DNA from: an uncultured Verrucomicrobiae bacterium
Lineage (GTDB): Bacteria; Verrucomicrobiota; Verrucomicrobiia; Limisphaerales; UBA11358
Direction of reading: 5' to 3'
Assembly: GCA_963797825.1 (NCBI GenBank)
Contig: CAWCRR010000047.1
Span: 108,060-172,059, forward strand
Length of the DNA: 64,000 bases
The position numbers and the translations under genes were made by a program. Of this stretch, positions 4,574 through 59,855 are shown one piece after another (positions within the stretch are counted from its first letter, which is position 1; each line of letters opens with the position of its first letter). A model generated the notes under the pieces. The model was not told where the DNA came from, ran no database searches, and saw only the letters and a program-made list of their open reading frames with translations.

Positions 4574-4765
4574 CTAGGAAATTGGGTCGCCATGAGCAAT
4601 CAGGCTTTCCAAATGCAAGGCAATCGCTTCGCGCATATTTTTTTTGGCCTCTGCTACTGAACCGCCATTGGAAAAACAACCGGGCAAATCGGGACAATAA
4701 ACCGAGTAACCCGCCTTGGGGTCTGCCTCGCGCTCAATCACGATTTCGTAAGTCTGCTTTTTCAT
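4574..4765 (-). CDS. hicB: HicB-family (UPF0150) antitoxin
   Basis: MKKQTYEIVIEREADPKAGYSVYCPDLPGCFSNGGSVAEAKKNMREAIALHLESLIAHGDPI contains the canonical PDLPGC...G.s..EA..n..EAI block. Confidence 0.7.
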   Translation of the reverse strand: MKKQTYEIVIEREADPKAGYSVYCPDLPGCFSNGGSVAEAKKNMREAIALHLESLIAHGDPIS

Positions 4766-4778
4766 TTGGCTTGCGGAG

Positions 4779-4964
4779 TCATTCTAGGCCGTAGCGTTTT
4801 TTTACTTCATTATGGGTGAGGCGCGGTTTGCCTTCGTCGCGCACGCGGGCTTCGGTCACGTCCAGATAATCGTTCAAATCTTCCAGTTCCTCGCGCAGCG
4901 TGGCAATTTGTTTCCGCTTGTGAGAAATGTCGCGGACGACGGTTTGTTGAATGGCTTTAGTCAT
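4779..4964 (-). CDS. Putative antitoxin partner of the upstream RelE/ParE toxin (61 aa from the ATG at 4964)
   Basis: Small ORF overlapping the toxin stop by 8 nt. The acidic/coiled segment LREELEDLNDYLDVTEARVRDEGKPRLTHNEVKKRYGL resembles the C-termini of small antitoxins. The family is not identified. Confidence 0.4.
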   Translation of the reverse strand: MTKAIQQTVVRDISHKRKQIATLREELEDLNDYLDVTEARVRDEGKPRLTHNEVKKRYGLE

Positions 4965-5214
4965 ATACGTCTTTTCGATTACCAATCTTGCGAATGACTA
5001 TAACATCGCCTTCCACGTCAAACAAGATGCGATAGTCGCCCATGCGGAGGCGATACATGGCCTCGGCCTCGCGCAAGTGTTTGATGTTACTGTGCAAACC
5101 GGATTGAAGGCGTTCAATCTTGCGGATAATTTGCGCCCTTTCACGGGCAGGTAATCCGTCAAGGTCATCCAAGGCAGAAGCACCGTATTCGATTTGAAAA
5201 CGATGACCATTCAT
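4957..5214 (-). CDS. RelE/ParE-family type II toxin
   Basis: 85 aa. ...LPARERAQIIRKIERL...IKHLREAEAMYRLRMGDYRILFDVEGDVIVIRKIGNRKDVY is the typical RelE/StbE C-terminal signature. Confidence 0.75.
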   Translation of the reverse strand: MNGHRFQIEYGASALDDLDGLPARERAQIIRKIERLQSGLHSNIKHLREAEAMYRLRMGDYRILFDVEGDVIVIRKIGNRKDVYD

Positions 5215-5252
5215 CGCGTGTTAACCGGGTTCAATCTGAGTTTCATCCGTCT

Positions 5253-5993
5253 CTAATCTTTCTTCAAAAACCGTTCCACCCATTCCACGTCGTCCGGGCT
5301 GTCCACGCCCACGCTGTCGTACTCCACCTTCACGACCGCGATCGGGATGCCGATCTCCAACGCCCGCAACTGCTCCAGCTTCTCCGCGTTTTCGAGCGCG
5401 GACACCGGAAATTTCACCAGCCGCAACAGCGTCTCGCGCCGGTACCCGTAGATGCCGAGATGCTTCAAAAAAGCAAACGCCGCCAACTGTTCGGCGGTCG
5501 AACCATTGGCGGCCTCGCGCAGATACGGGATCGTGCGCCTCGAAAAATATAACGCCCGGCCCGCCGCGTTGACAACTACTTTCACCACGTTCGGATTGTC
5601 CAATTCGGCCGGATTCTTTATGCGCGTCGCCGCCGTGGACATCTCGCACCCTTCCAATGCCTTCGCCACCGCGTCGATCACCCCCGGTTCGATCATCGGC
5701 TCATCCCCCTGGATGTTCACAATGCCATCGCACGAAATCTTCTCCGCCACTTCCGCAATCCGGTCCGAACCGCTCGGGTGCCTCGGCGAAGTCAGCTCCA
5801 CCCGGCAGAATTTTTTTGCGACATTGGAGATCCGTTCATCGTCTGTGGCCACGATGATTTCCGCCAGCGTCGGGGCCTTTTGGCATTGCTCGACCACGCG
5901 TTGGATCAGCGGTTTGCCCGCGATGAGCGAGAGCGGTTTGCCGGGGAAGCGGGTGGATGCATAACGCGCGGGGATGATGCCAACGATTTTCAC
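5253..5993 (-). CDS. kdsB: 3-deoxy-manno-octulosonate cytidylyltransferase (CMP-KDO synthetase)
   Basis: MKIVGIIPARYASTRFPGKPLSLIAGKPLIQRV...NIQGDEP...GIYGYR; full length at 246 aa. Confidence 0.95.
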   Translation of the reverse strand: MKIVGIIPARYASTRFPGKPLSLIAGKPLIQRVVEQCQKAPTLAEIIVATDDERISNVAKKFCRVELTSPRHPSGSDRIAEVAEKISCDGIVNIQGDEPMIEPGVIDAVAKALEGCEMSTAATRIKNPAELDNPNVVKVVVNAAGRALYFSRRTIPYLREAANGSTAEQLAAFAFLKHLGIYGYRRETLLRLVKFPVSALENAEKLEQLRALEIGIPIAVVKVEYDSVGVDSPDDVEWVERFLKKD

Positions 5994-52638: not shown

Positions 52639-52779
52639 AACATCGGTCTCGACGACGGCATCATCAGCCCGACGCTTTTCAGGATGATGGTATTCATGAC
52701 GATCGTAACCACCCTGATGGCTGTGCCGCTGCTTTCGTTGATCATGCCTTCGGCGGCAAAGGTTGCATCCGTGATATGA
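52639..52779 (+). pseudogene. 3' remnant of a CPA2-type cation:proton antiporter gene
   Basis: My translation is NIGLDDGIISPTLFRMMVFMTIVTTLMAVPLLSLIMPSAAKVASVI*, which matches the last TM helix of Kef/NapA-type antiporters (..lGl..gvIs..lfs.mVlMalvTTlmt.Pll). No upstream reading frame exists, and its stop overlaps the UDG start codon. Confidence 0.4.
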
Positions 52780-53780
52780 AGGAAACTCGTATTTCCGCGG
52801 TGCAGACCCATCTCATCCTCGCCGCGCGGGAGCTTGCCGCGCAGGTTGATTTGCTGAAATTCAAGCCGCCGGTCACGCATGTCTATAATCCACTCGATTA
52901 TGCCTGGAGCGCGCACGAGAGGTACTTGCGGCAGTACGGCGGCGGAAAGAAACGAATCGTTTTTCTCGGGATGAACCCGGGACCGTTCGGGATGACGCAA
53001 ACGGGAATTCCCTTTGGCGAGATCGCCGCAGTCCGCGATTGGCTGGGAATTTCCGCCGCAATCAGAAAACCTGAGTTATGCCACCCTAAACGGCCGGTGA
53101 CCGGTTTCGATTGCCTCCACTCAGAGGTGAGCGGAAGACGCTTGTGGGGGCTTTTTAGGGAGCGGTTTGGGACGCCGGAAAATTTTTTCGCGGACCATTT
53201 TGTTGCCAACTATTGTCCGCTGGCTTTCATGGGGAAAAGCGGCAGCAACCTGACTCCAGATAAACTGCGCAAAGCCGAATGCAAAAAGTTGTTTCAGATT
53301 TGCGATGCGCATTTGCGCCGCGTATTGGAAATACTCGATCCGGAATGGTTGATCGGCATCGGCGGATTTGCGGCCAGGCAGGGGACAATGGTGGTGGAGG
53401 ATCTCAAGAACGAAGATGGAGGAGGGAGGATGGAAAAGACACAAAAGAAACATTCAACCCGCCTTCGTCATGCTACCCACCTTCGCCAAGCTACGGCGCA
53501 GCAGGCGGTGCGGCAGGTATTCAACATCCAACGTCCAATGGTGCCAGCGAAAATCCAAGTGGGTCAAATTCTGCATCCGAGTCCGGCCAGCCCGGCGGCC
53601 AATCGCGGCTGGGCGGAGGCGGCGATGAAACAATTGGTCAGCCTGGGGATTTGGAAGGAGGGGGTGGATCGCCCCTCACTTTCGGAAAAGCAGAAAAGAA
53701 ACATCCAACCTCCAACGCAGAACCTTCAACCCCCAATGGCAGCACGTCCCCTTTTCAAATGGGACCAAGGGACAAATTGA
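52776..53780 (+). CDS. SMUG1-family (family 3) uracil-DNA glycosylase with an in-frame repeat insertion and a read-through C-terminal tail
   Basis: VFLGMNPGPFGMTQTGIPFGE (SMUG1 motif), ...NYCPLAF..., ...ILHPSPASPAANRGW (HPSPRNP-type motif). About 45 extra residues precede the HPSP motif, and 41 extra residues follow the expected ...LGIWK end. Confidence 0.85.
   Translation: MKETRISAVQTHLILAARELAAQVDLLKFKPPVTHVYNPLDYAWSAHERYLRQYGGGKKRIVFLGMNPGPFGMTQTGIPFGEIAAVRDWLGISAAIRKPELCHPKRPVTGFDCLHSEVSGRRLWGLFRERFGTPENFFADHFVANYCPLAFMGKSGSNLTPDKLRKAECKKLFQICDAHLRRVLEILDPEWLIGIGGFAARQGTMVVEDLKNEDGGGRMEKTQKKHSTRLRHATHLRQATAQQAVRQVFNIQRPMVPAKIQVGQILHPSPASPAANRGWAEAAMKQLVSLGIWKEGVDRPSLSEKQKRNIQPPTQNLQPPMAARPLFKWDQGTN
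53549..53657 (+). repeat. 109-bp perfect direct repeat, copy 1 (inside the UDG gene)
   Basis: gaaaatccaagtgggtcaaattctgcatccgagtccggccagcccggcggccaatcgcggctgggcggaggcggcgatgaaacaattggtcagcctggggatttggaag is identical to 55952..56060. Confidence 0.95.
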
Positions 53781-53862
53781 CGGATAGGCCCGCACCCAAA
53801 ATTGAATATGTTTGACATGTTCAACAAGTTCCAGTTTTTTCCATGTTTAATCCAAACCTCTT

Positions 53863-55917
53863 ATGTTGCCTCTTTTACGCTTTATCCTGATAGCCAGTAT
53901 CTTCTTGTCCTGCTTCCTCAAAGGCCTGGCCGGCGAGCCAGGAACGCAAATCCTTCCTGAGTCCGCCCTCGCAACCCATTATTTCGGCAATGATGCTCCG
54001 TGGTATGAACAGAACATCCCCTTCTTCGACTGCTCCGATCCGCAGATCAACCAGATCTATTATTATCGGTGGCAACTGTATAAGGCGCATCTCAAGGACA
54101 TCGGCCAGAAGGGTTACATCGTCACCGAATTCCTGGATAACGTCGGGTGGGCGGCCCGTCCGTATCAAAACCTCAACGATGCCACCGCCTTTCATATCAA
54201 TGAAGGCCGTTGGTTGAAGGACCAGAGCTACATCGATGATTACATCGATTTCATGTATGCCGGTGGGAACGACCGCCATTTCAGCGAAGCCATTGCCGCA
54301 GCCACCTATGGCAGTTATCTGGCAAGCGGAGACCGGGATTTCGCCATAAAAAATTTGGACTCGATGAAACGCATCTACCAGGCATGGTCGGACCATTATG
54401 ATGCGTCCAAAGGGCTTTACTACATCCAACCCATCGCGGACGCCACGGAATACTCCATCGCTTCAATCGATGCCAGCGGCGGCAAAGATGGTTTTTTTCA
54501 CGGCGACGCCTTTCGCCCCACCATCAATAGCTTCATGTTCGCCAATGCGTTGTCGATCAGCCGTCTGGCCGCCCTCGCGGGTGATGCCAACACCGCAGCC
54601 ACCTATGCCGCAAATGCCGAAGCGATCCGGGATGACGTGGAAACGAATCTTTGGAATGACCATTTGCAACACTTCGTTGATCGGTATAAAGCGGACAACC
54701 AATTCGTTCATTATTGGGATTTTATCCGTGGCCGCGAGCTGGCCGGTTATGTGCCCTGGGCCTTTGAACTGCCTGACCGGGATCCCAAATACAACGCTGC
54801 CTGGACCTGCCTCCTTTCAACGAATGAATTTGCCGGCCCCTATGGATTGCGTACGGTGGGGCCAGACTACCAATATTATATGCGTCAATACCGCTACGCC
54901 TACGCCAATGGAAAAAAAATGCCCGAATGCCAATGGAATGGCCCTTCCTGGCCCTTCGACACCACGCTCGTGCTCGACGCCATGGCCAATCTCTTGAACG
55001 ACTATACCCAGAACGTGGTGAATGCCGCGGATTACGTTGGCCTTCTGAAACAATATACCCGCCAGCATTATTTAAATGGCCAGCCTGATGTGGAGGAAGA
55101 TTACAATCCGGATACCGGCAAGATCATCGTCGGGTTGCCTCGAAGCAACCATTACAATCATTCGGATTATAACGACCTGATCATCACCGGGCTTGCCGGT
55201 TTGCGGCCACGCGCAGACGATACTCTTGAGATCAACCCGCTCATACCCGCCGATCCCGATTCGACAAACTCCCTCGATTATTTTTGCTTGGAAAACGTCT
55301 CCTATCACGGACACCGGGTCACAATTCTTTACGACAAAGATGGCAGCCATTACAGAAAAGGCGCCGGTCTTTCAGTCTATGTGGATGGAAGCCTGGCATT
55401 ACCACCATCGGCATTGGGAAAAAAAACCATCACAATCCCCGCGCCGGTGATCCGCACCGATTCGCATCCCATTGACCTGGCGGTGAACTGCGCCGGGCAG
55501 GGTTTCCCCAAGCCTTCTGCTTCCACCAACAACTTTCCGAACGAACTCTTCCAGGCCATAGATGGACGCGTCTGGTTTTTCCCCAACGTGAGAAATTACT
55601 GGTCGAATATGGGGTCGCAATCGGATGAAGACTGGTACAGTTTGGATTTTGGCGCCCCTGCGCAATTCAGTTCCGTTCAATTGTACTTCTACTCGGATGG
55701 GACCCGATTTGAAGCGCCGAAAAAATATATCATCCAATACTGGCAGGATGGGAACTGGAAGAATGTTTCCGACCTCCACATGATTCCCAAAAAGCCGCTG
55801 GCCAACGGCGAGAACACCGCCAGCTTTCGGCCAGTGGACTCCCCGCAACTGCGGATTCGGTTCATCAATCCCCGGCCAGCCGCGATGGCTCTGGTGGAGA
55901 TCAAGGCGTTTCGTTGA
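53863..55917 (+). CDS. Secreted (alpha/alpha)6-barrel glycoside hydrolase (GH63/MGH1-like) with a C-terminal discoidin (F5/8 type C) domain
   Basis: 684 aa with a signal peptide. ...YYYRWQLYKAHL..., ...PECQWNGPSWPFDTTLVLDAM... The C-terminus ...AIDGRVWFFPN...WYSLDFGAPAQFSSVQLYFYSDG...YIIQYWQDGNWKNV is discoidin-like. Confidence 0.7.
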   Translation: MLPLLRFILIASIFLSCFLKGLAGEPGTQILPESALATHYFGNDAPWYEQNIPFFDCSDPQINQIYYYRWQLYKAHLKDIGQKGYIVTEFLDNVGWAARPYQNLNDATAFHINEGRWLKDQSYIDDYIDFMYAGGNDRHFSEAIAAATYGSYLASGDRDFAIKNLDSMKRIYQAWSDHYDASKGLYYIQPIADATEYSIASIDASGGKDGFFHGDAFRPTINSFMFANALSISRLAALAGDANTAATYAANAEAIRDDVETNLWNDHLQHFVDRYKADNQFVHYWDFIRGRELAGYVPWAFELPDRDPKYNAAWTCLLSTNEFAGPYGLRTVGPDYQYYMRQYRYAYANGKKMPECQWNGPSWPFDTTLVLDAMANLLNDYTQNVVNAADYVGLLKQYTRQHYLNGQPDVEEDYNPDTGKIIVGLPRSNHYNHSDYNDLIITGLAGLRPRADDTLEINPLIPADPDSTNSLDYFCLENVSYHGHRVTILYDKDGSHYRKGAGLSVYVDGSLALPPSALGKKTITIPAPVIRTDSHPIDLAVNCAGQGFPKPSASTNNFPNELFQAIDGRVWFFPNVRNYWSNMGSQSDEDWYSLDFGAPAQFSSVQLYFYSDGTRFEAPKKYIIQYWQDGNWKNVSDLHMIPKKPLANGENTASFRPVDSPQLRIRFINPRPAAMALVEIKAFR

Positions 55918-55949
55918 TATCTCGCTCAAAATCAGGACCGCCCCGCCTG

Positions 55950-56063
55950 ATGAAAATCCAAGTGGGTCAAATTCTGCATCCGAGTCCGGCCAGCCCGGCG
56001 GCCAATCGCGGCTGGGCGGAGGCGGCGATGAAACAATTGGTCAGCCTGGGGATTTGGAAGTAA
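55950..56063 (+). pseudogene. Displaced duplicate of the UDG 3' end that retains the native stop codon
   Basis: It reads MKIQVGQILHPSPASPAANRGWAEAAMKQLVSLGIWK* and contains repeat copy 2 (55952..56060) followed directly by TAA. Confidence 0.85.
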
Positions 56064-56255
56064 AACGGAAAAATTAGATTGACAAATTTTAGTTATTTGT
56101 AATTCTTAATTTCACAGAATTCGAAAAGGAAATCCAAATATAGAAAAGTGTCTGAGTTCGCTCAAGTTGCCAGTCTCCGGTTTTTTCGTGCCTCGGCACG
56201 AGAAAAATCGCATTTGTCAGGTACAACTATCACTCCAATACAGCAGAAGAAAATC

Positions 56256-59200
56256 ATGCGATCAACTATGAAAAACACCCTGGTGGTTCTAGTGTGGTTA
56301 TTTGCGATCGTCACGCAAGCGGCCACCTTCACCGTAACCCCAAACGTCGTAAGCAACAATTTCACCGGCCGCGTGGTCTTCCAGATGACGGGCCTGGCTT
56401 CCGGCGATAGCGTGCTGGTGCAGGAATTTTTCGATGCCAACAACAACGGCGTGGTGGATGCCGGCGATTTCGCCGTGCGCAGCGACTGGGTCACCGATGG
56501 CCGGATGAGCCTGCTGGCGGGGGCAACTAATCTGGACGTAGTGCATGACGAGGATGGCGCGACCAACGGCGCGATCACCGCGTCCTTCCGATTCCCCACG
56601 ACCCCCGACCTTGCCCGCACACTCGGTCAATACATTTTTCGTTTCAGCAGCCCGTCCAACCATTTCACCCCGTCCAACGCCGTCTTTACCGTGGCCAGTC
56701 CAACTTACGCCCAAAGCATCCAGGGAGTTGTCACCAGCAGCGGCACGAACGTCCCCAACGCGTTCATTGCTTTGCTCGATCCCGCGGCAGTCGAAGGAAC
56801 GCCGGCGATCATCCGAAATGTCGCTGACGCAACCGGCCATTACTCCATCCCCGCACCCTCGGGCACGTATCAAGTCACCGCTACCCGACCGGGCTACGTT
56901 GGCGACCCATCAGTGTTTCCGATTGTAACCCTGTCGCCGAATGTGACGATCACCACCAATTTAAGTCTCATTCCGGCCAATTGCACTATCTCCGGGTACC
57001 TGGCGGACAGTACCAACGCTGCTTTGAAAATCCTCCCTGGCGCGCAACTCCTGGCATTTTCCACCAATTCCCTCTTCACCATCGCGGTTGCCGACACCAA
57101 TGGCAACTTCTCGATTCCTGTCACAACTAATAATATTTGGACGATCCGGCCGTACGCGCAAAGCGCCATTTCACAGGCTTACCTGCCGCTGGACCCGGGC
57201 TTTGAGAGCCAGTATAACACTTCCTCCGGCTCTCTCGGCGCCTACATCTTCCTCGAACACGCCACCGCCATGCTCTACGGAACCGTCCAGGACAATCATG
57301 GAAACCCGATTGCGGGGGTCGGCCTTGCCGCTAACGTCATTACTCCATACGACTCTTATGGTTTCTCGGACACCAACGGCGCTTACACGATGGTAACCGA
57401 TCAAGGCGGAGGATTCATCAATGTGGAAAACACGGGAATCGCACCCGCGAACAGCTACCTCTTTGGCGGCACTGGTTTCAGCATCAATAGCGGACAGGCG
57501 ACGTCTTTAAACATCATTGGCTACCTTGCCACCGCACGATTTCGCTCGCATGTGATAGACGATTCCGGCGCGCCGGTGACCAATATGTTCGCTTTTGCCA
57601 ACAATTCTGAAACCGGCGTCACGACATTCGGCAACACCGGGACCAGCGGCTTCCTGGATATGCCCGTCTTCGCCGGCACCTGGACCCTGGAAGTTGGCGA
57701 GTATTTTCTCGTTTTCCCGGATATGACTCCATTCACCATCGTTGATGGAGTCAACCTGACCAATGATATCGTCGCTCACAGGGTCACAGGCAGCATTTCC
57801 GGCTATGTTCTCGGCACGAACGGCATCGGCATCCCCAACCTCCGGATCACAATCACTAACAGCATTGGCACCACCAATTTCACTCTTTCCAGGCAAACCG
57901 CCGCGGATGGCTCCTACTTCGTGCCGGTCTTCAACGGCACCTGGAATGTCAGTGTGGATCCTGACTATTTGAACTCAGCGGGTTATTATCCTGTCAACCC
58001 CGTTGATGTCCCCGTGCCACCGGCCCTTGCCGAGGCAGATTTCACAGCCACAAATCTGCCACCGATACCGCCGCCACAAATCCTTACCACGAACCTCCCC
58101 GACGGAAGTATCAGTAATTCCTATTTCACCCAAATAACAGTCATCAATGGCTCCGGTGCCTTCGTTTGGTCGGTGACATCCGGCGCCCTGCCAGGCGGGC
58201 TAAACCTGGACAATTTCGGCGATATTTATGGCGACCCAACCAATATCGGCCTGTTCACTTTTGCCGTGCAGGTGACGGATTGGCGCGGAAGCAATGACAT
58301 GCAGGTCTTGTCCATCAATGTTCTGGCGACGCCGCCGGGTCCATTGCAAATCTCCGCCATCACAATCCCAACCTTGGCGGTGGGTTGCCCTTACACCAAC
58401 CAACTTCAGGCCACCGGCGGCTCGCCTCCGTATTCCTGGACGCTGGCTCCGGATTCAAACCCGCTGCCCGACGGCTTGACCCTCGACACCAACGGCCTGC
58501 TCTCGGGAATCCCGACTGCCTCCAGCTATTTTTATCCGGTCGTCCAGGTCAGCGATTCTCTTGGAGCGGTGACAAATGAACAGGTGTCGATCTCGGTAAA
58601 CACTGAGTTGCAAACTTATTCGGCGCCCATGCCGGCCGGTTGGGTGGGTTGGAGTTACTACGGTTATCCGCCGGTGAGTGGCGGCGCGCAGTCGCAAACC
58701 TGGACCATCGTTTCCAACTCATTGCCACCCGGCCTGACCAATGACCCCGTGAACGGTGTGATCTCGGGCGTGCCCACGACGAATGGAGTTTTCAATTTCA
58801 CCCTCGAGATCAATGACGGTTGCACCATCGCCGACCTGGATCTCACCATCACGAATTATCCCGCGCCGCTGCAAATCACCACCACGTCGCTGCCGTACCC
58901 GACGGTGGGCTGTCCTTACACGAATCAGCTCCAAGCTCTTGGCGGCACGCCTCCGTATTCATGGGCGTTATCGCCTGATTCCGCTCCGTTGCCGGACGGA
59001 TTGAATTTCGATACGAATGGCGTGATTTCGGGCATCCCGGCAACGGCAGGCTTTTTTTACCCGACCTTCCAAATCGGCGATTCAGACGAATCGGTCACTA
59101 ACGAAGAGCTATATATCTCGGTGAATTCGGCGCTCATGGTTACTTCCTCGCCATTACCCCCGGGCGAGGTGGGTTTGAATTATTATGGCTATCCGCCCAT

Positions 59201-59855
59201 CAATGGAGGAAGCCAGACACAAACGTGGACCGTCGTTTCCAATTCGTTGCCGCCGGGCCTGACCAATGACCCCGCCAGCGGCGTGATCTCGGGGATACCC
59301 ACCACGGATGGCATTTACAACTTTACCCTCGAGGTGAACGACGGTTGCTCTATCGCCGACATTCCTCTCAGCGTCACGAATTATCCCGCGCTGCAGATCT
59401 CCGCCGCGAGTCTGCCGATTGCCCGGCCCAACGTCCCTTACACCGCCCAACTTTTGGAAACGGGAGGAATCCCGCCCGTTTATTGGTACACTTCCGATTC
59501 GCTGGGCGAATTGATCCTTAACTCCGATGGGTCGATCACCGGGACGCCCCTGGAATCAGGAAGCTATAATTTTCTGGCGCAGGTTTATGATGACTACGGA
59601 GGCTACGCCACAAACAACTTTGTGCTCGTCGTCTCGTCCCAACCCATGCTGGACCTGCCGAGGCATTCGGGGCAGCACCAATTCACTTTCCGTATCACGG
59701 GCGTTTCCGGCCAAAGCTATACGGTTCAGTTTGCGAACAAACTGACGAATTGGGCCGACCTCCTCACCACCAATGCGCCCGCCGACGTGTTCTTCCTCAC
59801 GGACACGAATGCCACCAACCAGAGCCGCTTTTATCAATTGAAAGTAAATCCTTAA
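56256..59855 (+). CDS. Giant secreted protein with CarboxypepD_reg-like and He_PIG (putative Ig) domains and the FYR-type C-terminal module
   Basis: From the ATG at 56256: signal peptide MRSTMKNTLVVLVWLFAIVTQAA. He_PIG units such as LAVGCPYTNQLQATGGSPPYSWTLAPDSNPLPDGLTLDTNGLLSGIPT. A 525-nt internal tandem duplication (58341..58865 / 58866..59387). It ends ...LTNWADLLTTN...QSRFYQLKVNP. Confidence 0.75.
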   Translation: MRSTMKNTLVVLVWLFAIVTQAATFTVTPNVVSNNFTGRVVFQMTGLASGDSVLVQEFFDANNNGVVDAGDFAVRSDWVTDGRMSLLAGATNLDVVHDEDGATNGAITASFRFPTTPDLARTLGQYIFRFSSPSNHFTPSNAVFTVASPTYAQSIQGVVTSSGTNVPNAFIALLDPAAVEGTPAIIRNVADATGHYSIPAPSGTYQVTATRPGYVGDPSVFPIVTLSPNVTITTNLSLIPANCTISGYLADSTNAALKILPGAQLLAFSTNSLFTIAVADTNGNFSIPVTTNNIWTIRPYAQSAISQAYLPLDPGFESQYNTSSGSLGAYIFLEHATAMLYGTVQDNHGNPIAGVGLAANVITPYDSYGFSDTNGAYTMVTDQGGGFINVENTGIAPANSYLFGGTGFSINSGQATSLNIIGYLATARFRSHVIDDSGAPVTNMFAFANNSETGVTTFGNTGTSGFLDMPVFAGTWTLEVGEYFLVFPDMTPFTIVDGVNLTNDIVAHRVTGSISGYVLGTNGIGIPNLRITITNSIGTTNFTLSRQTAADGSYFVPVFNGTWNVSVDPDYLNSAGYYPVNPVDVPVPPALAEADFTATNLPPIPPPQILTTNLPDGSISNSYFTQITVINGSGAFVWSVTSGALPGGLNLDNFGDIYGDPTNIGLFTFAVQVTDWRGSNDMQVLSINVLATPPGPLQISAITIPTLAVGCPYTNQLQATGGSPPYSWTLAPDSNPLPDGLTLDTNGLLSGIPTASSYFYPVVQVSDSLGAVTNEQVSISVNTELQTYSAPMPAGWVGWSYYGYPPVSGGAQSQTWTIVSNSLPPGLTNDPVNGVISGVPTTNGVFNFTLEINDGCTIADLDLTITNYPAPLQITTTSLPYPTVGCPYTNQLQALGGTPPYSWALSPDSAPLPDGLNFDTNGVISGIPATAGFFYPTFQIGDSDESVTNEELYISVNSALMVTSSPLPPGEVGLNYYGYPPINGGSQTQTWTVVSNSLPPGLTNDPASGVISGIPTTDGIYNFTLEVNDGCSIADIPLSVTNYPALQISAASLPIARPNVPYTAQLLETGGIPPVYWYTSDSLGELILNSDGSITGTPLESGSYNFLAQVYDDYGGYATNNFVLVVSSQPMLDLPRHSGQHQFTFRITGVSGQSYTVQFANKLTNWADLLTTNAPADVFFLTDTNATNQSRFYQLKVNP

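What the first reader, a model, noticed from the sequence alone, without database searches (positions are those of the whole stretch)
53549..56063. Perfect 109-bp direct repeat of the UDG 3' end brackets a glycoside hydrolase gene and deletes the UDG stop codon
53549..53657 and 55952..56060 are identical. Copy 2 is followed directly by TAA and reads ...ILHPSPASPAANRGWAEAAMKQLVSLGIWK*, which matches the native C-terminus of SMUG1-type glycosylases (HPSPRNPQANKGW...). Copy 1 lies inside the intact UDG gene and continues for 41 extra codons (EGVDRPSLSEKQKRNIQPPTQNLQPPMAARPLFKWDQGTN*). So a ~2.3-kb segment (53658..55951) carrying only the GH63-like/discoidin hydrolase gene appears to have been inserted exactly before the UDG stop, duplicating 109 bp. 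That duplication is far too long for a transposon target-site duplication, and the perfect identity implies a recent event.
Basis: seen in the sequence. Interest (0 to 1): 0.6.

Follow-up and report, generated by a model that had tools for sequence, protein, structure and literature searches.

The report
Displaced hydrolase gene bracketed by UDG tails
A sugar-cleaving enzyme gene, cut out of its usual operon, now sits at the end of a DNA-repair gene between two identical copies of that gene's last 36 codons; this is the freshest of at least 14 similar "gene-tail" insertions in this soil Verrucomicrobia genome.

Summary
53549-53657 and 55952-56060 are identical and occur nowhere else in the 4.9-Mb genome. 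Copy 2 keeps the native ...GIWK-TAA end. Copy 1 lacks the stop, so the UDG runs on for 41 codons.

The arrangement is derived:
- About 8000 SMUG-type homologues scored; all 34 aligned end at GIWK plus or minus 4 residues.
- None of 40 related genomes has a second UDG tail.
- In two relatives the hydrolase follows a GH127-like gene. This genome has no GH127 orthologue.

- The repeat's left end coincides, within 3 nt, with the right end of a 144-bp in-frame insertion (X) of intergenic repeat modules, which is unique to this UDG.
- At least 13 other loci here (asd, pntB, uvrB, trpB, trpD, glmS, ilvE, comEC and others) show the same layout: conserved gene, 48-139-bp tail, accessory cassette, orphan tail. 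Their differences are mostly synonymous.

No integrase lies on the contig. There are no inverted ends, no attC-like fold and no shared end motif.

Best reading: a recent recombination event, not a transposon, and one member of a lineage-wide tail-duplicating process. The exact mechanism, and why the boundary coincides with X, remain open. No public data cover the two key junctions.

The parts
52776..53780 (+). SMUG-type (family 3) uracil-DNA glycosylase ORF of 334 aa. It consists of the native body A (52776 to about 53408), the insertion X, tail copy R1 and a 41-codon read-through.
   Evidence: PF03167. 66-68% identical overall, and 69-80% over aligned columns, to 240-250-aa homologues. The GMNPGPFG and HPSPASPAANRGW motifs are kept.
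53409..53552 (+). X: a 144-bp (48-codon) in-frame insertion made of intergenic repeat modules (GGAAAAG..AAAAGAAACATTCAAC, a 63-bp CCGCCTTCG...GGCAGG hairpin-type sub-element, then AACATCCAACGTCCAATGG). It is absent from all homologues.
   Evidence: In relatives, query residues 1 to about 210 and 258-294 are adjacent. Their sequences read ..ENTKIRVGQILHPSP (alignment A1). The same motifs are scattered in intergenic DNA genome-wide. A soil-metagenome contig carries X without the 63-bp sub-element, with ATC in its place. X is open in all three forward frames.
53549..53657 (+). R1: the proximal copy of the 109-bp UDG tail (KIQVGQILHPSPASPAANRGWAEAAMKQLVSLGIWK). It is in frame with the gene and has no stop after it.
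53658..53862 (+). X': the left end of the inserted segment. It is a second intergenic repeat module related to X (GGAAAAGCAGAAAAGAAACATCCAACCTCCAAC...CCAATGGCAGC). It supplies the 41-codon UDG extension (to 53780) and the 5' region of the hydrolase gene.
   Evidence: D5 and D15. It has no homology to the region upstream of the hydrolase in relatives. No terminator-like site lies between R1 and the hydrolase start.
53863..55917 (+). Secreted MGH1-like (GH63-related) glycoside hydrolase with a C-terminal F5/8 type C (discoidin) domain, 684 aa.
   Evidence: Pfam. 86% aa and nt identity to P0121/L019 and 71% aa to G001. In both relatives it follows a GH127-like gene.
55918..55951 (+). 34-nt spacer between the hydrolase stop and R2. 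Homology to the relative ends 4 nt after the stop. The spacer contains CTCAAAATC (55925-55933), identical to the inferred X-less native junction.
55952..56063 (+). R2 plus TAA: the distal, orphan copy of the UDG tail. It keeps the native stop and, by coincidence, is preceded by an in-frame ATG.
   Evidence: The native end is confirmed by homologues.
56064..59855 (+). AT-rich spacer and He_PIG/CarboxypepD_reg surface-protein gene (56148-59855). This is the DNA that follows the native UDG stop.

Best explanation
This is a real and evolutionarily young rearrangement. A roughly 2.3-kb piece carries one gene, a secreted GH63-like hydrolase that normally sits behind a GH127-like gene near tRNA-Leu in this lineage. 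That piece was joined into the 3' end of the UDG gene by host recombination or repair, not by a transposase or an integrase encoded in cis. Candidate processes are illegitimate or homology-anchored joining and template switching.

The event left the last 36 UDG codons on both sides. The proximal copy continues the gene but has lost its stop, adding 41 aa. The distal copy keeps the native stop and is an orphan. Because no terminator-like site intervenes, the hydrolase is now probably transcribed from the UDG side.

The locus is the youngest member of a genome-wide process that places accessory cassettes behind conserved genes and leaves 48-139-bp orphan tails. It is also the only perfect one.

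Shown: the anatomy, its derived state, the displaced origin of the hydrolase, the genome-wide pattern, and the lack of mobile-element hallmarks. Inferred: the recombination mechanism, the recency and the co-transcription.
For: - The repeat is exact and unique in the genome.
- The assembly resolves more than 10 identical 1.5-kb IS copies inside contigs, so it is long-read based and a 109-bp repeat should be spanned.
- Independent soil-metagenome contigs confirm the A-X-R1 junction region and the X'-hydrolase junction at 97-99% identity.
- About 8000 UDG homologues were scored. The 120 listed are 237-299 aa, and all 34 aligned lack both X and the extension.
- No second UDG tail occurs in 40 relatives.
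- The hydrolase follows a GH127-like gene in L019 and G001. In L019 it lies 80 nt from tRNA-Leu, beyond which L019 is syntenic with G000 contig C54 at 83-87%. G000 has no GH127 orthologue.
- At least 13 further tail-duplication loci sit behind asd, pntB, uvrB, trpB, trpD, glmS, ilvE, comEC and a GT4 gene.
- Differences between their copies by codon position 1/2/3 are 14/15/47. In codons, 40 changes are synonymous and 27 are not.
- There are no inverted ends and no transposase in the segment.
- None of the genome's 18 tyrosine recombinases is on this 191-kb contig.
- Cassette ends share no motif, and the repeat has no attC-like fold.
Against: - No empty site and no read across 53657/8 or 55951/2 could be found.
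- The repeat's left end coincides with the edge of X (P about 0.01 if the two are independent). A single simple event does not explain this.
- Microhomology at the junctions is only 1-3 nt.
- In the other loci the proximal tail keeps its stop and the two tails differ like alleles. The UDG case has identical tails and a lost stop, so it may have arisen differently.
- An integrase acting in trans cannot be excluded.
Confidence: 0.55

Rival explanations
1. Site-specific integration. R is an att site. A small integrase-less element (CIME-like) carrying the hydrolase and a replacement UDG tail was integrated by a tyrosine or serine recombinase encoded elsewhere in the genome.
For: Direct repeats that consist of the target gene's 3' end are the classic signature of such elements, and integrase-less att-flanked remnants are described (PMC5704250). 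The genome has 18 PF00589 genes. The two comEC orphan tails start at the same position.
Against: No integrase lies on the contig. No UDG tail duplication occurs in 40 relatives, so the site is not used recurrently. Orphan-tail boundaries differ between events at glmS and trpB. The supposed element-borne tail lacks a stop codon, which defeats the purpose of a replacement tail. Cassette ends share no motif. The cargo is a native gene, not typical island cargo.
Confidence: 0.15
2. Exchange between two alleles. Position p in the UDG is a hot spot for insertion of intergenic modules. One allele carried X at p (A-X-R). Another carried the module-led hydrolase segment at p (A-X'-GH-R). An unequal crossover, or loop-out followed by Campbell-type reintegration, at the short AAG / GGNGGATYT..AAG similarity between the end of A and the end of R joined them into A-X-R-X'-GH-R.
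For: This model explains why three junctions fall on the same native position, and why R1 ends exactly before the stop. Both inserts lie between ...AAG and AAAATCC. X and X' belong to the same module family (D5 and D15). A related strain has A-X(short)-R. The first bases of R, AAAATCCAAG, resemble the module heptamer AACATCCAAC.
Against: The second allele is hypothetical. The similarity at the crossover is about 10 of 15 nt with gaps, which is chance level apart from the AAG. The model needs two independent insertions at one site.
Confidence: 0.15
3. One complex replication or repair event (template switching, MMBIR-like, or a staggered break) at the edge of the structure-prone X module. Synthesis ran through R to the stop, switched to the hydrolase template, then returned to the X|R edge and copied R again.
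For: The result is a perfect 109-bp duplication of the target. The breakpoint sits at the edge of a module that contains a hairpin-type sub-element. A 9-nt copy of the inferred native junction, CTCAAAATC, lies 21 nt before R2 and looks like an abortive return. The hydrolase comes from the same lineage.
Against: X shows no significant predicted fold (z = 0.17). Microhomology at the switch points is at most 3 nt. No second copy of the hydrolase template remains in the assembly. The CTCAAAATC match is post hoc, and the 9-mer is over-represented genome-wide (91 found, 38 expected).
Confidence: 0.15
4. Assembly artefact or collapsed population heterogeneity. In that case the true molecules are A-X-R-TAA plus a separate molecule or locus carrying R-X'-GH-spacer.
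For: The genome is a metagenome bin (82.5% complete, 6.3% contamination). The two critical junctions have no independent read support.
Against: Multi-copy 1.5-kb IS elements are resolved within contigs, which implies reads far longer than 109 bp. Other parts of the locus are confirmed by independent samples. The same layout, with non-identical repeats, occurs at 13 or more other loci, and those cannot be graph artefacts.
Confidence: 0.07

Closest known systems
C-terminal displacement with orphan 3' ends at rhs, cdiA and vgrG loci (paired homologous and illegitimate recombination; Jackson et al. 2009, as cited in PMC8125069)
   Same: An intact gene is followed by new cargo and then by a cast-off copy of the gene's own 3' end. 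No dedicated recombinase is involved. In the other loci of this genome the orphan and proximal tails differ like alleles, mostly at synonymous sites.
   Different: The host genes here are housekeeping or repair genes, not polymorphic toxins. The tail is not replaced by a different one. In the UDG case both tails are identical, the proximal one has lost its stop, and the cargo is a native metabolic gene.
Integrase-mediated islands at gene 3' ends, and their integrase-less remnants (CIMEs, accretion arrays; ICESt1 at fda; PMC5704250)
   Same: [quoted passage not shown] Elements can stack in tandem. Remnants lack integration genes.
   Different: No integrase lies in cis. There is no recurrent use of the UDG site in relatives. 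Boundaries vary between events. There is no stop in the replacement tail. The repeat is 109 bp of perfect identity, whereas ICESt1 repeats are, from memory, about 27 bp.
Tycheposons and additive flexible islands at tRNA or gene ends (bioRxiv 10.1101/2020.12.28.424599)
   Same: Cargo modules accumulate at the 3' ends of conserved genes, separated by partial copies of the target.
   Different: Those elements encode their own integrases or replication genes and mostly use tRNA genes. None of that is seen here.
Homology-facilitated illegitimate recombination during natural transformation (de Vries and Wackernagel 2002; cited from my own knowledge)
   Same: A conserved gene serves as the homology anchor and the other end joins at microhomology. 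The genome encodes ComEC.
   Different: Uptake and donor DNA were not observed. Identical tails imply a donor from the same population or an event within the genome.

Membership tests
Transposon/IS insertion with target-site duplication | Short target duplication (about 2-15 bp, rarely up to about 30 bp) | tested here: not met
   The duplication is 109 bp.
Transposon/IS insertion with target-site duplication | Terminal inverted repeats and a transposase gene within the element | tested here: not met
   No inverted repeat pairs the ends of 53658-55951. The only supported ORF is the hydrolase.
Integrase-mediated island / CIME | attL and attR are direct repeats that contain the 3' end of the target gene | tested here: met
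   R1 and R2 are the last 36 UDG codons.
Integrase-mediated island / CIME | A cognate site-specific recombinase in the element or nearby | tested here: not met
   None of the 18 PF00589 matches is on contig C47. Serine recombinases were not searched.
Integrase-mediated island / CIME | Recurrent use of the same att site in related genomes | tested here: not met
   Only G000 has a second UDG tail among 41 genomes.
Integrase-mediated island / CIME | Excision to a circle and an empty site | not testable with these tools
   Public reads are too thin, at 0-4x word depth, and no joints were seen.
C-terminal displacement / HFIR-type tail orphaning | An intact gene, then new cargo, then an orphan copy of the gene's 3' end | tested here: met
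C-terminal displacement / HFIR-type tail orphaning | Proximal and orphan ends differ as alleles from different lineages | tested here: not met
   The UDG copies are identical. The feature is met at the other loci: differences by codon position are 14/15/47, and all 8 glmS differences are synonymous.
C-terminal displacement / HFIR-type tail orphaning | Microhomology at the illegitimate junction | tested here: inconclusive
   Only 1-3 nt (G, AA or AAG) are shared at the junctions, and the donor sequence is unknown.
Integron gene cassette | A structured attC site at the cassette end, with an IntI/attI platform | tested here: not met
   R, X and X' show no significant fold (z between -1.3 and +0.9). 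Cassette ends share no motif.
SMUG1-type (family 3) UDG (the host gene) | UDG-superfamily domain with the GMNPGPFG and HPSPxxxxANxGW motifs | tested here: met
   PF03167. Both motifs are invariant in alignment A1. Activity of the 334-aa form was not tested, and the AlphaFold model was poor.
MGH1-like / GH63-related hydrolase (the cargo) | Full-length match to PF22422 plus a carbohydrate-binding module | tested here: met
   PF22422 at 4e-78 covering profile positions 3-356 of 356; F5_F8_type_C at 3e-12.

The most novel reading that the evidence does not exclude
The UDG locus may be a freshly made example that shows how soil Verrucomicrobia create 'tail-anchored' cassettes. An insertion process would duplicate about 50-140 bp of a conserved gene's 3' end, here bounded by the edge of an intergenic heptamer module and by the stop codon. 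That duplication would turn any gene, even a native operon gene, into a unit carrying its own homology anchor. Ordinary recombination could then move the unit between lineages. This would be a recombinase-free, or unknown-enzyme, route of gene mobility operating across the group, and the heptamer modules would mark or cause the breakpoints.
Probability: 0.2. Interest if true: 0.7.

Novelty: new variant of a known kind. Interest (0 to 1): 0.45.

Why it matters
If the reading holds, the locus catches a gene-relocation event almost at time zero: identical repeats, a lost stop codon and messy junctions. It sits in a lineage where the same layout recurs behind many housekeeping genes with no visible recombinase. 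That gives a concrete substrate for asking how such tail-bracketed cassettes arise and move, using long reads, PCR for circles and empty sites, and recA or comEC dependence. It also shows a native operon gene being re-homed behind an expressed repair gene. Taken alone, it is one more example of a known layout, and the mechanism is not settled.

Tried and rejected
- Empty site in relatives: five UDG loci from the same genus share no synteny beyond the UDG. The best UDG homologue among 5.8 billion proteins is only 66-68% identical. An exact 28-mer scan of the JGI metagenomes found only distant UDGs.
- Reads: six soil or estuary runs were laid. Depth was 0-4x and no read crosses the two key junctions.
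- Horizontal origin of the hydrolase: rejected as unsupported. It is 86% identical in nt to L019, the same as the syntenic flanking genes. Its GC content is only slightly below the flanks. Its signal peptide is diverged but native.
- attC-like or terminator structure in R, X or X': none.
- A shared motif at cassette ends across 13 loci: none.
- Fixed left boundaries of orphan tails, as expected for att sites: the same at comEC but different at glmS and trpB, so inconclusive.
- Head versus tail asymmetry of duplicated gene ends: the 'head' class is confounded by paralogous signal peptides and was not used.
- Structure prediction of the 334-aa UDG, to judge whether X and the extension are tolerated: pLDDT was 56, so it is uninformative and no fold search was run.
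- X as a high-copy element: only short, diverged matches. It is a mosaic of common intergenic motifs, not a defined MITE.
Full report
**Observation.** The repeat is as described. 53549-53657 and 55952-56060 are 109 nt long, 100% identical and 2403 nt apart. They are the only two copies in the 4.9-Mb, 63-contig assembly. Copy 2 (R2) is followed by TAA. Copy 1 (R1) lies in the ORF 52776-53780 and reads through 41 further codons. The ORF is a UDG-superfamily protein (PF03167). The only supported gene between the copies is a 684-aa MGH1-like (GH63-related) hydrolase with an F5/8 type C domain.

**Is it an assembly artefact?** The assembly resolves more than ten identical 1.5-kb IS copies inside contigs, so it was built from reads much longer than 109 bp. 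Short contigs from independent soil metagenomes of one study match parts of the locus at 93-100%. One covers A-X-R1 (53371-53581, with a variant of X). One covers the X'-hydrolase junction (53716-53931). Others lie in the hydrolase and in the downstream gene. None crosses 53657/8 or 55951/2, so those two junctions rest on the assembly alone.

**The arrangement is derived.**
- About 8000 SMUG-type homologues were scored, and the 120 listed are 237-299 aa long. The closest is 66-68% identical overall, or up to 80% over aligned columns.
- In an alignment of 34 homologues, every one ends at ...GIWK plus or minus 4 residues, as R2 does.
- In 20 of 40 related genomes that have the gene, the body and the tail are contiguous. 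Only this genome has a second tail.

**The hydrolase is displaced, not obviously foreign.**
- Its closest homologue (P0121, 86% aa and nt) lies on a 311-kb metagenome contig directly behind a GH127-like gene.
- The same pair occurs in the same-genus genome G001, at 68% and 71% aa.
- In the close relative the hydrolase stop is 80 nt from the 3' end of tRNA-Leu(CAA).
- Everything beyond that tRNA is syntenic with contig C54 of this genome at 83-87% nt. On the other side of the tRNA this genome has comEC instead, and it has no GH127 orthologue.
- Nucleotide homology to the relative covers only 53941-55921 and ends 4 nt after the stop.

The gene therefore diverged at the same rate as its former neighbours but now stands alone behind the UDG. 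It is in the same orientation, with no terminator-like site between. The likely consequence is that it is transcribed from the UDG side.

Relatives read ...GGFAxxRGxxVxxxLKI(R/Q)VGQILHPSP. This genome has 48 extra codons between Leu-210 and Lys-Ile.
- This insertion, X (about 53409-53552), is built from motifs that fill intergenic DNA throughout the genome: AACATCC-type heptamers and a CCGCCTTCG...GGCAGG hairpin-type unit.
- X is open in all three frames. Its length is a multiple of three. A strain variant differs from it by 60 nt, also a multiple of three. This suggests the interrupted UDG is still under selection.
- R1 begins within 0-3 nt of the right edge of X. Three junctions (A|X, X|R1 and spacer|R2) therefore map to one native position. 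If the events were independent, I estimate P at about 0.01.
- The inserted segment itself starts with a related module, X' (D5 and D15). Both inserts lie between ...AAG and AAAATCC.
- A 9-nt copy of the inferred X-less junction (CTCAAAATC) lies 21 nt before R2. This observation is post hoc and weak.

I cannot explain this coincidence with certainty.

- A screen for direct repeats of 40-400 bp within 15 kb, with one copy ending at the stop of a long ORF, found at least 13 further loci.
- The host genes are asd, pntB, uvrB, trpB, trpD, glmS, ilvE, comEC and a GT4 glycosyltransferase.
- The tails are 48-139 bp long and include the stop plus 0-12 nt. The cassettes between them include PIN/VapBC pairs, HicB, sigma-factor-like genes and large surface proteins.
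- Differences between proximal and orphan tails by codon position 1/2/3 are 14/15/47. In codons, 40 changes are synonymous and 27 are not. All eight glmS differences are synonymous.
- These orphans therefore diverged while still functional. They are alleles from other lineages, or tails carried along with the cassettes, not decaying local duplicates.
- Cassette ends share no motif. Left boundaries are the same at comEC but differ at glmS and trpB.
- Earlier notes of this scan describe the same layout at trpB and glmS in this genome and in other Verrucomicrobia. I used them as leads and re-derived the pattern myself.

**How the UDG locus differs from the other loci.** The UDG tails are identical and the proximal one has lost its stop. 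The R1|X' junction is therefore a true breakpoint, not the end of allelic homology. The locus looks like a primary or very recent event.

**Mobile-element hallmarks are absent.**
- The ends of 53658-55951 carry no inverted repeats, and the segment has no transposase.
- None of the 18 tyrosine-recombinase genes is on this 191-kb contig.
- R, X and X' show no significant secondary structure.

**Mechanism.** I commit to host recombination or repair rather than a dedicated element in cis (0.55). Within that, three routes stay open:
- homology-anchored plus illegitimate joining, as in C-terminal displacement (PMC8125069);
- unequal exchange between two alleles that each carried a module-led insert at the same hot spot;
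- multi-step template switching at the edge of X.

An integrase acting in trans on R as an att site, giving a CIME-like element (PMC5704250), is a weaker rival. The site is not reused in relatives, and a 'replacement' tail without a stop makes little sense. An assembly artefact is unlikely (0.07).

**Age.** A strain about 97% identical already has X (in a shorter form) and the hydrolase. If it also shares the R-hydrolase-R structure, about 2-3 differences between the copies would be expected, and zero would have P of about 0.1. 'Recent' is therefore likely but not proven. Gene conversion or short-read polishing could also keep the copies identical.

**Verdict.** The locus is a new variant of a known layout, a gene-tail duplication around inserted cargo. 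It is of moderate interest on its own. It matters more as the cleanest, youngest case of a process that seems widespread in this lineage.

Noticed in passing
window 53409-53552: A 144-bp in-frame insertion of intergenic repeat modules lies in the UDG loop before the beta-strand that leads into HPSP. A soil-metagenome strain variant lacks the 63-bp hairpin-type sub-element (53459-53521, replaced by ATC), so the modules turn over while preserving the reading frame.
   Followed up: yes
genome contigs C36:113386, C41:27245, C41:37094, C56:15983, C59:12314, C54:17854, C28:135625, C44:85250, C47:128975 (window 20916), C7, C29, C35: At least 13 further loci have a 48-139-bp copy of a conserved gene's 3' tail repeated 0.4-5 kb downstream, with accessory cassettes between. 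Differences between the copies are mostly synonymous.
   Followed up: partly
L019:10148-10234 and G000 C54:20340-20428: The 3' end of tRNA-Leu(CAA) is a sharp synteny break between this genome and its 86%-identical relative. The relative has GH127-like plus the hydrolase there. This genome has comEC with two orphan comEC tails and a 1410-aa surface-protein gene.
   Followed up: partly
window 52639-52779: A 46-codon stump resembles the last helix of a CPA2/Kef-type antiporter and ends in a TGA that overlaps the UDG start. It has no other copy in the genome and no counterpart upstream of the UDG in five relatives.
   Followed up: partly
window 55925-55933: CTCAAAATC, identical to the junction expected in a UDG without X (Leu CTC, Lys AAA, Ile ATC), lies 21 nt upstream of R2. 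It may be a footprint of an abortive joining step, or chance: the 9-mer occurs 91 times in the genome against 38 expected.
   Followed up: partly
genome contig C48:1-859 and 4627-5485: An 859-bp perfect direct repeat lies on a short contig that also holds three tyrosine-recombinase genes. It may be a tandem or circularly permuted integrative element.
   Followed up: no
window 55950-56063: R2 is preceded by an in-frame ATG, giving a 37-codon ORF (MKIQVGQILHPSP...GIWK*). This is probably fortuitous.
   Followed up: no
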